A stretch of 64,000 bases of DNA from an uncultured Poribacteria bacterium (GTDB taxonomy: Bacteria > Poribacteria > WGA-4E > WGA-3G): the NCBI GenBank assembly GCA_951813565.1, contig OX638351.1, positions 5,312,001 through 5,376,000 of the forward strand, written 5' to 3'. Positions 41,726 to 42,213 of the stretch are shown piece by piece. The notes beneath the pieces are model-generated. The model was not told where the DNA came from. It did not search any database and saw nothing but the letters and a program-made list of their open reading frames with translations. The translations under genes were made by a program, and so were the position numbers. Position 1 is the stretch's first letter. Every line of letters starts with the position of its first letter.

Positions 41726-42213
41726 GGGTGTGTAAAGTTTTTGTAGAAATCCGCCCTACAGTGGAAAACGCCGCGTAATCATTGCAAATTGAACCTATAT
41801 AAACGACTTGTGCCAGTTAACATTTTGTTTTATTGGTTTTCACATATATTTGCATTTGTGCTATAAACATATCGTCCCTACCAAATCAACGCCAAATGCG
41901 CCAAATCAAGAAATCAACGGTATGAATCATGGCGAATGCCAAAAGCGCATTCGTCTTTAGTCATTCACCGGGTATGAATGCCTTTTGGCATTCCCCGTAT
42001 GGCATTTGGCGGGACTAAAGAGTGCTCGTCCAATCATTTTCTATAAACATATCGTCCCTACCAAATCAACGCCAAATGCGATTATGGCATTTGGCGGGAC
42101 TGAAGAACATATAAATATATGATAATGACTTACGAACATTTTCTTTTGTGAAATAAAGTTCTACAAACGGTTATTTAGCACAACTCGTTATATAACCAAA
42201 TATTTACACATCC
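41726..42213 (+). mobile_element. ISKra4-end-bounded MITE-like element with REP doublet and nested hairpin units
   Basis: Left GGGTGTGTAAAG; right TATAACCAAATATTTACACATCC resembles the ISKra4 end at 47446-47468; flanks GCAACGAAT / GCAACAAAC (degenerate TSD). Confidence 0.65.

What the first reader, a model, noticed from the sequence alone, without database searches (positions are those of the whole stretch)
41861..42105. Family of 34-35 nt hairpin units that insert after CG inside REPs and inside each other, with no target duplication
Seen: units made of an ~8-bp hairpin plus CGTTGATT(TGG/CC/CA) occur at 30575-30608, 41027-41060, 41206-41240, 41881-42009, 42061-42094 and 58214-58282. Five are exactly 34 nt once inner inserts are removed. 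Read hairpin-first, each follows a CG. Removing a unit regenerates a clean host palindrome: GTCCCTA|CGGGAC twice here, and GCG|CAATGAATTGCGCGACTAC at 58212. Stems differ between units (CCAAATGC, CAGCATGC, CTGAATGC) but stay paired, which points to selection on structure. At 41861-42015 the nesting is REP > 34-nt unit > ~36-nt unit > 59-nt unit. Known: TSD-free, hairpin-dependent, short-motif-targeted insertion is how HUH/Y1 transposases (IS200/IS605 TnpA, TnpA-REP/RAYT) behave. Inference: an ultra-small non-autonomous mobile element that parasitises REPs. I do not recognise it as a described family, and its mobilising enzyme is not evident in this window.
Basis: partly seen in the sequence, partly recalled or inferred. 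Interest (0 to 1): 0.88.

Follow-up and report, generated by a model that had tools for sequence, protein, structure and literature searches.

The report
Tiny self-nesting hairpin mobile element
A 34-35-base hairpin-forming piece of DNA, present about a thousand times in this sponge-symbiont (Poribacteria) genome, has been slotted precisely into other small repeats and into its own copies, so it behaves as one of the smallest mobile DNAs seen, but the enzyme that moves it is still not identified.

Summary
All six listed sites carry the unit: G, an 8-bp stem with covarying pairs, a conserved 7-8-nt loop, CGTTGATT, then two variable bases (34-35 nt). The genome has 1270 CGTTGATT cores against about 200 expected. 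Cutting out 34/35 nt restores a sequence found elsewhere for 202 of 464 canonical units.

New here:
- Window 41803-42189 is a classical MITE with inverted ends and a 7-bp duplication. The "REPs" at 41861-42105 are its inner palindromes. Its 18 sister copies form a ladder from empty to several nesting layers.
- An identical 95-nt nested composite sits in two unrelated hosts (31649-31743 and 41902-41996), so composites probably move whole.
- At the orthologous site of the unit at 30575, two species are filled and two empty.
- The "CG" is host C plus unit G, both paired with the CG before TTGATT.

The element occurs in one Poribacteria family only (96 of 111 genomes besides this one). No Y1/RAYT gene is flanked by it or tracks its abundance, and this genome has no IS91 or IS110 gene. 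A HUH-type single-strand mechanism is the best guess, unproven.

This scan found the same element before, in this genome and in other Poribacteria genomes. My paper searches found no description.

The parts
41803..42189 (+). Host element: a 387-bp MITE copy. Its inverted ends are ACGACTTGTGCC... and ...GCACAACTCGT. A 7-bp target duplication TATATAA lies at 41796-41802 and 42190-42196. It carries two inner palindromes, GTCCCTA^CGGGAC.
   Evidence: Six near-identical paralogs aligned. 36 copies found by their ends, each with a flanking direct repeat. 18 same-subfamily copies form a size ladder of 206-411 bp.
41881..42009 (-). Type-A unit (34 nt: 41881-41901 plus 41997-42009) in the first MITE palindrome. 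Its loop is split by a 95-nt composite. The boundary is ambiguous by 1 nt.
   Evidence: Excising 129 nt gives a junction 24-mer found 4 times elsewhere. One sister MITE copy has both sites empty; another has only the 34-nt unit at the first site. The outer 10-bp stem is kept in the fold, z = -4.8.
41902..41996 (-). 95-nt nested composite. The outer layer is a type-B unit (GGGGAATGCC..GGCATTC..TTGATTTG). Inside it sit a type-C unit and a further hairpin element.
   Evidence: It is 95/95 identical to 31649-31743, which lies in a different host. The 95-nt size class has 14 copies genome-wide. Sister MITE copies carry only the 35-nt short form, or forms about 36, 60 and 84 nt longer.
42061..42094 (-). 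Simple type-A unit (34 nt) in the second MITE palindrome (host GTCCCTA 42054-42060, CGGGAC 42095-42100).
   Evidence: Excision gives a junction found 2 times elsewhere. Three sister MITE copies have this site empty. DNA fold -11.2 kcal/mol, z = -4.5.
31649..31743 (+). The same 95-nt composite, here in the loop of a GTAG-type REP (..GTAGGGGCGGGTCTCC^GTGCCCCGCC..).
   Evidence: Sequence read. Alignment is identical over C + 95 nt + G and unrelated outside.
30575..30609 (-). Type-A unit (35 nt, 8-nt loop) between convergent genes. It is flanked by halves of two different REP types.
   Evidence: Orthologous intergenic regions: G087 is filled at the same REP, G098 and G089 hold the empty REP. Contigs of 4 runs from 4 studies bridge it unchanged.
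41026..41060 (+). Type-A unit (35 nt) in the loop of a GCACC..GGTGC REP, after GCACCC.
   Evidence: Sequence. Fold -7.7 kcal/mol, z = -1.7; the stem has one mismatch. No exact empty paralog.
41206..41239 (+). Type-A unit (34 nt, stem CTGAATGC) preceded by G, not C.
   Evidence: Sequence. Fold with a 9-bp stem, z = -2.6. No exact empty paralog.
58213..58281 (+). Type-A unit (stem CAGCATGC) with a 35-nt type-B unit (58227-58261) in its loop after CACAC. The host is ..GAGGC^GCAATGAATTGCGC.
   Evidence: Removing the inner 35 nt gives a junction found 13 times. Removing all 69 nt gives the empty host, found 1-4 times. This host has 49 empty copies and 15 filled copies with +34 nt.

Best explanation
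**What it is (shown).** A non-autonomous mobile DNA unit of 34-35 nt. On its hairpin-first strand it reads: G, an 8-bp stem (three positions covary), a conserved loop CAnAcGC(+1), the return stem, CGTTGATT, then two variable bases. It enters DNA in one orientation, right after a C (most often CCC) and often before a G. It duplicates no target bases.

**Where it lands (shown).** Preferred sites lie in other hairpin repeats:
- the foot of GTAG-type REPs, between the hairpin and the GTAG head
- the loops of REPs and of MITE palindromes
- the C^G step in the loop of its own copies

The host C and the unit's G pair with the CG before TTGATT.

**Arrays and composites (inferred).** Insertion recreates C^G at the unit's 5' side, so the same site could be hit again. 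That would give the head-to-tail arrays. Nested composites of 71, 95, 119 and 130 nt keep the outer ends and appear to move whole.

**Mechanism (inferred, about 45%).** It is cut and joined as single-stranded DNA by a HUH/Y1-type enzyme supplied in trans. One possibility is that the CG next to the hairpin foot acts as a two-base guide for the C^G cut, as the AG of GTAG does for C^T in E. coli TnpA-REP.
For: **Real family with defined ends**
- Conservation spans exactly positions -27 to +8 around TTGATT in 283 aligned copies.
- Only 33-36-nt excisions restore sequences found elsewhere, for 202 of 464 units. Lengths 28-42 were tried.
- Those 202 units lie in 65 distinct 8+8-nt contexts.

**Target**
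- The 5' flank is CCC in 84 of 198 distinct flank classes. The last base is C in 68% and the next host base is G in 47%.

**Exact empty and filled pairs per host family**
- GGGGTT..AACCCC REP: 137 empty copies (plus 21 of a variant one C shorter); filled copies show +34, +35 and multiples.
- Host GAGGC^GC: 49 empty, 15 filled.
- MITE palindrome: 19 empty, 14 filled by +34.

**Further support**
- The ladder of sister MITE copies runs from both sites empty to several nesting layers.
- Orthologous site: G000 and G087 filled, G098 and G089 empty.
- The identical 95-nt composite lies in two unrelated hosts.
- Short type-B units: 110 copies in 30 flank classes. Long composites: 87 copies in 23 flank classes, with discrete sizes.
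- The first base belongs to the stem. With CG before TTGATT it is G in 347 of 354 units. With TG it is A in 25 of 38.
- Copy number in the genus ranges from 1 to 377.

**HUH analogy**
- Passages of PMC3479197 say the two bases next to the REP hairpin foot dictate the C^T cleavage site, and that TnpA-REP does strand transfer on single-stranded DNA.
Against: **No enzyme is linked**
- G000 has 10 Y1 gene matches over the Pfam cut-off. None shows units as its flanking repeat. Those examined show their own end sequences or their own REPs.
- 0 of 8 RAYT loci in six other high-copy genomes have a GTTGATT core within 330 nt. All sit among their own GTAG-type REPs.
- G093 is a closed genome with no Y1_Tnp match, yet it holds 46 pattern hits, of which only 6 are exact. 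G086 has none and 30 hits.
- G110 has 206 hits and no strong RAYT.

**No replication-strand signal**
- No orientation bias along the chromosome was seen, but the GC skew gives no clear origin or terminus, so this test is void.

**Points the model does not explain**
- Only the left junction fits the C^G guide idea. The right junction (..TTGATTTG^G or ..TTGATTCA^C) does not.
- The last two bases depend on the host: TG is followed by G in 65 of 72 distinct flank classes, CA by C in 28 of 40.
- Net insert length is 33 nt in two host families. The ends are therefore not fully understood.
- Empty 'alleles' among paralogs are not true pre-insertion sites.
Confidence: 0.55

Rival explanations
1. The unit is moved by a recombinase that is not a HUH enzyme: a tyrosine or serine recombinase, an integron-like enzyme acting on folded hairpins, or an undescribed protein. 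Its gene may lie outside these assemblies.
For: No Y1 gene is linked to the units. GTTGATT fits 6 of 7 positions of the integron core GTTRRRY (core recalled from memory). Head-to-tail arrays look like cassette arrays.
Against: The junctions lie at C^G in front of the hairpin and two bases after TTGATT, not at G^TT. There is one core per unit and no inverse core. IS110-type and IS91-type genes gave no match in G000, but the IS91 profile rang in none of the 14 control genomes. I did not survey tyrosine or serine recombinases.
Confidence: 0.2
2. No dedicated enzyme is involved. Units are copied into hairpin sites by template switching or hairpin-primed repair during replication, using the C-rich flank as microhomology.
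For: Donor and target share the CCC flank. Some genomes with units have no Y1 gene. The variable last two bases and the 33/34/35-nt net lengths suggest slightly sloppy ends.
Against: The 5' end is fixed: G at position -26 in 279 of 283 copies. The 3' end is fixed at TTGATT+2 across 198 distinct flank classes. Microhomology between the unit start and the host 3' flank is no greater than in shuffled pairings: observed 71/33/8/6 for lengths 0-3, against 70/32/11/4. Loop and tail are conserved in sequence, as expected for protein recognition.
Confidence: 0.12
3. The units are not independently mobile. A few old insertions were spread passively when their host repeats (REPs, MITEs) multiplied, and by recombination or gene conversion between repeats. 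Empty copies reflect loss.
For: Many filled sites sit in multi-copy hosts. The outer units of the MITE are shared by most sister copies. The unit at 30575 is flanked by halves of two different REPs, which looks like recombination. Contigs from 4 studies show no change at 30575.
Against: There are 198 distinct 6+6-nt flank classes, and unrelated host families each have exact empty and filled forms. The same host family carries units of different stem classes. An identical composite lies in a REP loop and in a unit loop. Precise loss of 34 nt bounded by at most one repeated base is not expected from slippage.
Confidence: 0.08
4. The units are selected functional modules, such as intrinsic terminators (stem plus UUGAUUU), RNA stabilisers or protein-binding sites, and are kept for that role.
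For: A GC-rich 10-bp stem is followed by a T-rich tail. 396 of 464 units are intergenic, against about 17% non-coding DNA in my crude gene set.
Against: Orientation relative to neighbouring genes is weak: 143 co-oriented and 113 opposite in tandem spacers. Divergent spacers hold 77 units and convergent spacers 63. Nesting inside other copies destroys hairpins. Copy number ranges from 1 to 377 within one genus. I examined no RNA data.
Confidence: 0.05

Closest known systems
Small dispersed repeats SDR1-8 of Nostoc and relatives (Elhai et al. 2008, Genome Res 18:1484). I could not read the paper. I saw its title in the reference list of PMC3733652; its content is recalled.
   Same: Very small (tens of nt) hairpin-forming dispersed repeats with compensatory stem changes. 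They nest inside each other and inside other repeats, differ in presence between related genomes, and have no known transposase.
   Different: A different phylum and unrelated sequence. Here the unit is 34-35 nt (recalled SDR size 21-27 nt). It has a fixed 7-8-nt tail (C)GTTGATT and a defined C^G / CCC^ insertion point. Composites of up to about 130 nt seem to move whole.
REP / BIME / REPIN elements with RAYT (TnpA-REP) Y1 HUH enzymes (PMC3479197 passages; PMC3733652 passages; PMC6006769 passages).
   Same: Short extragenic imperfect palindromes with an unpaired conserved tag at one side of the hairpin. They are high-copy and lineage-restricted. The enzyme cuts single-stranded DNA at a dinucleotide set by the bases next to the hairpin foot.
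   Different: The tag is AATCAAC(G), not GTAG. No RAYT gene is flanked by the units. The RAYTs of these genomes have their own GTAG REPs. The units insert into those REPs, so they behave as parasites of REPs, not as the RAYT's own repeat.
CGTC-tagged REPs (Di Nocera et al. 2013, PMC3733652; passages read).
   Same: REP-like hairpins with 8-9-bp stems, a non-GTAG tag and a short unpaired tail. They have no dedicated transposase gene. That paper also reports REPs sitting inside other small palindromes.
   Different: The tag sequence differs (CGTT..GATT or AACG next to the stem, against CGTC). Loops are 7-8 nt, not 4-5. Self-nesting and head-to-tail arrays predominate, whereas that paper reports mainly head-to-head dimers.
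IS200/IS605 insertion sequences and their gene-less derivatives (PATEs). Mechanism as described in passages of PMC3479197; details for IS608 and ISDra2 are recalled.
   Same: No target duplication, fixed orientation, insertion 3' of a short motif that is kept, dependence on a subterminal hairpin, and the possibility of repeated insertion at the same site.
   Different: One hairpin, not separate left and right ends, and about 34 nt against hundreds. The IS605 copies of this genome have unrelated ends. Their presence does not track the units: G104 has 377 pattern hits and none of its four Y1 matches looks like an IS605 tnpA, judging by score and length.

Membership tests
REP with cognate RAYT (REPtron) | Short extragenic imperfect palindrome in high copy number | tested here: met
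   464 canonical units and about 1270 cores in the genome. 396 of 464 units are intergenic.
REP with cognate RAYT (REPtron) | Conserved GTAG (or CGTC) tetranucleotide at the hairpin foot | tested here: not met
   The bases next to the stem are ..AATCAACG on the tag-first strand, which reads CGTTGATT after the stem on the other strand. There is no GTAG or CGTC.
REP with cognate RAYT (REPtron) | The repeat flanks a RAYT gene in inverted orientation | tested here: not met
   The three RAYT-type genes of G000 and 8 RAYT loci in six other genomes sit among their own GTAG-type REPs or inverted repeats. 0 of those 8 have a GTTGATT core within 330 nt.
IS200/IS605-derived non-autonomous element (PATE) | No target duplication; oriented insertion 3' of a short conserved motif | tested here: met
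   Exact 34/35-nt excision with at most a 1-3-nt ambiguity. The 5' flank is C in 68% and CCC in 84 of 198 flank classes.
IS200/IS605-derived non-autonomous element (PATE) | Left and right ends matching those of an autonomous IS with tnpA in the genome | tested here: not met
   The IS605 copies (tnpA plus a downstream open frame of tnpB type by position, not family-searched) have unrelated ends. The one AATCAAC near them lies in the coding sequence downstream of tnpA.
MITE of a DDE transposon | Terminal inverted repeats and a target-site duplication | tested here: not met
   The unit has neither. Its host at 41803-42189 has both: inverted ends and the 7-bp TATATAA duplication.
Integron attC site / cassette | Paired core sites (RYYYAAC .. 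GTTRRRY) with crossover at G^TT (feature recalled) | tested here: not met
   There is one GTTGATT per unit and no inverse core. The junctions lie before the hairpin and 2 nt after TTGATT.
Small dispersed repeats (SDR) of cyanobacteria | Sequence membership in SDR1-8 | not testable with these tools
The likeness is in kind only.
Any Rfam RNA family | Match to a curated covariance model | tested here: not met
   At the gathering threshold the window gave only three tRNAs. A permissive scan of 41780-42210 gave only a chance mir-39 match, E = 0.54.

The most novel reading that the evidence does not exclude
The unit is a minimal self-guided transposon. In about 34 nt it fuses a left end (G plus hairpin) and a right end (hairpin plus GTTGATT+2). 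It also carries its own two-base guide: the CG next to the hairpin foot pairs with the C^G cut and target site. A host-encoded HUH enzyme, perhaps one of the REP-associated ones, acts on it in trans. Because the ends suffice, it can carry cargo (composites of 71-130 nt are seen). It lives as a hyperparasite of REPs, of MITEs and of itself. That would make it the smallest known transposable element with a readable targeting rule.
Probability: 0.25. Interest if true: 0.85.

Novelty: new variant of a known kind. Interest (0 to 1): 0.64.

Why it matters
How REP-like repeats multiply is a long-standing open question, because true filled and empty sites with exact junctions are rare. This family offers hundreds of them. 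It has a readable insertion rule (after C, before G) and nested layers that record the order of events. Copy number ranges from 1 to 377 within one genus.

That makes two things testable:
- which protein cuts and joins such hairpins, using oligonucleotides and the handful of Y1 proteins encoded here
- how small a mobile DNA can be

In practice, these units break assemblies and mimic CRISPR-like or regulatory hairpins in Poribacteria genomes. Annotators should mask them.

Tried and rejected
**Replication-strand bias.** Cumulative GC skew gave no usable origin or terminus, and unit orientation was about 50:50 in all 20 bins. No conclusion.

**Enzyme by adjacency.** Cores near the IS605 copies turned out to be coding sequence. 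Units near two RAYT genes of G000 lie beside or inside those genes' own REPs or inverted repeats.

**Enzyme by co-occurrence.**
- RAYT-type protein across 112 family genomes, and Pfam Y1_Tnp across 40 genus genomes.
- By my own arithmetic, the median pattern count is 49.5 in 20 genomes with a strong RAYT and 22 in the 20 without.
- Exceptions exist: G110 has 206 hits and G088 has 84.
- Kin are not independent, and REP abundance is a confounder. I rejected this as evidence.

**Other enzyme families in G000.**
- IS91 Y2: no match, but the profile rang in none of the 14 control genomes.
- IS110 DEDD: no match.
- PDDEXK_2: no match.
- Transposase_31: two matches, one with an internal TGA and one partial. 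Not followed.

**Search for an autonomous version.** I looked for a matching left arm up to 6 kb upstream of each tail. Distances peaked only at 100-200 nt, with no recurrent long spacing.

**Microhomology or a mini-duplication at the junctions.** Not above shuffled expectation.

**Units inside genes.** Of 40 hits deep inside predicted ORFs, most were chance hairpins or spurious ORFs made of unit arrays.

**Public runs.**
- Eight runs from 4 studies hold the region, as contigs only.
- Laid contigs bridge the 30575 unit unchanged.
- The joints at 41787>42193 (skips 405) and 42060>42095 (skips 34) have sides of only 22-23 letters in a multi-copy MITE. They probably come from sister copies and are no evidence of present activity.
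- No RNA run was examined.

**Other scans.** No exact match in viral contigs.

**Calls that failed.** timed out and was redone. The iterative 'peeling' script removed only 520 units, because other sub-families have different hairpin geometry.

**Not done.** I did not build a covariance model.
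Full report
**1. What is at the coordinates**

Read hairpin-first, it is:
- G
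- an 8-bp stem
- a 7- or 8-nt loop, consensus CAnAcGC
- the return stem
- CGTTGATT
- two variable bases

The base before the G is usually a host C. Host C and unit G pair with the CG before TTGATT, so the folded form has a 10-bp stem. Single-strand DNA folds give -11.2 kcal/mol (z = -4.5) for the simple copy at 42061-42094. They keep the outer stem in the nested copies at 58213-58281 and 41881-42009.

Size is 34 nt with a 7-nt loop and 35 nt with an 8-nt loop.

**2. More than chance**

- CGTTGATT occurs 10 times in the window against 3.36 expected; 0 of 100 shuffles reach 10.
- It occurs 1270 times in the 5.43-Mb genome against about 101 per strand expected from base composition.
- A search for TTGATT preceded by a 10-bp stem (at most one mismatch, loop 5-9) finds 464 units, against 23 in the reversed sequence. 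Of the 464, 394 have the family's stem top.
- Conservation in 283 aligned copies starts sharply at -27 and ends at +8.
- Units were also collected by loop and tail only, with no pairing required. Stem pairs 4, 5, 6 and 9 each show two or three Watson-Crick types and are 85-93% paired, against 61-80% after shuffling partners.
- The first base also covaries. It is G in 347 of 354 units with CG before TTGATT, and A in 25 of 38 units with TG.
- These changes define a few sub-families, so the number of independent events is small.

**3. Other sub-families**

847 cores remained after the canonical units were removed. They belong to other hairpin types that share the tail. One is 'type B', GGGGAATGCC-ATAA-GGCATTC-ATACC-GTTGATT-TG. 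It has 110 short copies, of which 101 are 35 nt.

**4. Insertion, not just repetition**

I cut out every possible segment of 28-42 nt around each of the 464 units and asked whether the joined 12+12-nt flanks occur elsewhere in the genome. Hits came for 202 units, and only for lengths 33-36, peaking at 34 (7-nt loop) and 35 (8-nt loop). These 202 lie in 65 different 8+8-nt contexts.

| Host family | Empty copies | Filled copies |
|---|---|---|
| REP ..AAACC-CC-TCCYACAA | 137, plus 21 of a variant one C shorter | +34, +35; two-unit (69-71) and three-unit (105) sizes |
| Host CGAGG-CGC-AATGAATTGC | 49 | 15, +34 |
| MITE palindrome AGT-CCCGT-AGGGACG | 19 | 14, +34 |

Where the junction is unambiguous, the insert starts with G after a C and ends two bases after TTGATT. 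Over 198 distinct flank classes, the 5' flank is CCC in 84, the last host base is C in 68%, and the next host base is G in 47%. There is no target duplication, and microhomology is no greater than in shuffled pairings.

**5. The host at 41861-42105 is a MITE**

Window 41803-42189 is one copy of a classical MITE:
- inverted ends ACGACTTGTGCC.. and ..GCACAACTCGT
- a 7-bp duplication TATATAA on both sides

The two 'REPs' are its inner palindromes, GTCCCTA^CGGGAC.

Eighteen copies of this sub-family in the genome form a ladder:
- 223 bp: both palindromes empty
- 256 bp: first site filled
- 291 bp: first site plus a nested 35-nt unit, or both sites filled
- 325-327, 362, 385-386 and 410-411 bp: further layers

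One copy carries a unit in the opposite orientation in the second palindrome. The '59-nt unit' is itself two layers.

**6. Composites seem to move whole**

The 95 nt nested in the loop at 41902-41996 are 95/95 identical to 31649-31743. That copy sits in the loop of an unrelated GTAG-type REP. In both places the composite lies between a C and a G.

Genome-wide, long type-B forms come in discrete sizes: 71 nt (20 copies), 95 (14), 119 (26) and 130 (9). There are 87 copies in 23 flank classes, at the same kinds of sites as the 35-nt form. The simplest reading is that the outer ends suffice for movement. Recurrent identical nesting is the alternative.

**7. Orthologous sites and distribution**

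Between the same two convergent genes, G000 and G087 carry a unit in the REP, while G098 and G089 have the empty REP. In G000 the unit is flanked by halves of two different REP types, which suggests later recombination.

A 27-nt degenerate pattern (up to 2 mismatches) matched 98 of 176 genomes of the phylum, counting this one. The reversed control gave 0 everywhere.
- Family f1: 96 of 111 other genomes. Own genus 39 of 39; second genus 54 of 65.
- Outside f1: only one single hit.
- Counts range from 1 to 377.

The share of exact matches differs between genomes:

| Genome | Exact / all pattern hits |
|---|---|
| G106 | 146/217 |
| G000 | 155/320 |
| G104 | 167/377 |
| G107 | 34/100 |
| G086 | 10/30 |
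| G093 | 6/46 |

Other scans:
- In a species-wide genome collection, 79 of the 80 listed hits are Candidatus Poribacteria records and one is an 'uncultured bacterium'.
- Viral contigs gave none.
- Rfam has no match.

**8. The enzyme question**

G000 has 10 Y1_Tnp gene matches over the Pfam cut-off:
- five IS605-type tnpA
- two IS200-like, one of them truncated
- three RAYT-type, one with a stop codon

None shows units as its flanking repeat. The RAYT-type and IS200-like genes examined sit among their own REPs or inverted repeats. The three aligned IS605 copies have their own, unrelated ends.

In six other high-copy genomes, 8 of 8 RAYT loci sit among their own GTAG REPs, with no unit core within 330 nt.

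No Y1 class tracks the units:
- G104 (377 hits): none of its four Y1 matches looks like an IS605 tnpA, by score and length.
- G106 and G107: no match looks like the IS200-like type.
- G110 (206 hits): no strong RAYT.
- G093 and G086 have no Y1 match at all, yet 46 and 30 pattern hits. G093's are mostly degenerate.
- G097 has no Y1 match and one hit.

IS110-type and IS91-type genes gave no match in G000, though the IS91 profile rang in none of the 14 control genomes. The enzyme remains unknown.

**9. Why I still favour a HUH-type single-strand mechanism (about 45%)**

Four traits match IS200/IS605 and REP/RAYT systems: no target duplication, a fixed orientation, a kept short target 5' of the element, and dependence on a hairpin with a conserved unpaired tag.

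Passages of PMC3479197 state that in E. coli TnpA-REP the two bases next to the hairpin foot (the AG of GTAG) dictate cleavage at C^T, and that the enzyme transfers strands. Here the two bases next to the foot are CG. By the same rule they would specify C^G, which is the left junction seen: CG in 236 of 354 units, and GG in 111, which are units behind another unit's tail. This is an inference from analogy, and it explains one junction only.

**10. What stays unexplained**

- The last two bases depend on the host. TG is followed by G in 65 of 72 distinct flank classes, and CA by C in 28 of 40. All stem classes show both tails.
- In two host families with CC^TA, the net insert is 33 nt.
- GC skew gave no origin or terminus, so the lagging-strand test could not be done.

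**11. Rivals**

A terminator or other RNA role is unlikely as the main explanation. Orientation is 143 co-oriented against 113 opposite in tandem spacers, and divergent spacers hold as many units as convergent ones. The other rivals are passive spread with host repeats, template switching, and a non-HUH recombinase. They are weighed in the Rival explanations section.

**12. Literature and earlier notes**

My searches were:
- Poribacteria + palindromic + repeat
- 'small dispersed repeat'
- 'small mobile repeated elements' + cyanobacterial
- Poribacteria + RAYT
- REPIN + RAYT + nested + 'inserted into'

None of the listed titles or abstract openings describes this family. The Poribacteria + RAYT hit that I opened was an author name.

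I read passages only of PMC3733652, PMC6006769, PMC3479197 and PMC8546597. Elhai et al. 2008 could not be opened.

The scan's own notes describe the same element in this genome and in other Poribacteria genomes. My tests agree with them on the unit, the CCC/C^G site and the missing enzyme. This report adds:
- the MITE host and its ladder
- the identical composite in two hosts
- the host-dependent tail
- the first-base covariation
- the negative RAYT-flank survey
- the guide hypothesis

Noticed in passing
window 41796-42196; sister copies listed: A MITE family with inverted ends ACGACTTGTGCCAGTTAAC.. and 7-bp AT-rich target duplications. 36 copies were found by end pattern, in several sub-families of 206-411 bp plus a 246-bp type. 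No parent transposase was identified. The IS1595-type gene nearby does not share these ends.
   Followed up: partly
window 32077-32955 (+): ORF with IS1595-family DDE transposase domains (DDE_Tnp_IS1595, E = 5.5e-37, plus its zinc ribbon). The region at about 31.2-33.4 kb has 10-50 times the contig depth of its surroundings in four metagenome runs, so it is a multi-copy IS.
   Followed up: partly
genome-wide: The unit's last two bases depend on the host site. TG comes before a host G, and CA, CG or CC before a host C. This holds in every stem sub-family. In two host families with CC^TA, the net insertion is 33 nt instead of 34. No model I tried explains this.
   Followed up: partly
window 30539-30645 and loci L042-L044: In G000 the unit at 30575-30609 is flanked on one side by the left arm of one REP type (GGTGAGG) and on the other by a different REP (GGGGCACAGAGACCCC + GCCCTACA). 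Relatives have a single REP here. This looks like recombination between two unit-bearing repeats.
   Followed up: no
G000 242023-242496, 3549542-3550090, 5070794-5071273, 3097995-3098471 (outside the window): Three RAYT-type genes (one with an in-frame TAG) and an IS200-like gene sit beside hairpin repeats of differing sequence. Two of them show inverted copies on both sides.
   Followed up: partly
window 41924-41965 and sister MITE copies: Two further small hairpin inserts without a GTTGATT tail lie in the innermost layers of the nest. One is CGAATGCC-AAAAGC-GCATTCG with short flanks. The other is an insert of about 24 nt..TCATGTAGAATACCAAAAGCGTATTCTACC... These are other micro-element families using the same hairpin tops.
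   Followed up: no
G030 (another family of the order), C1:4822201-4822227: This is the only pattern hit outside family f1 (1 mismatch). It may be a transferred or contaminating copy.
   Followed up: no
window 39502-39782 and 42347-43360: A cluster of three tRNA genes. A DNA methylase gene (N6_N4_Mtase, E = 4.8e-52) lies directly downstream of the MITE. The 0.7 kb upstream of it is absent in relatives such as G098.
   Followed up: no
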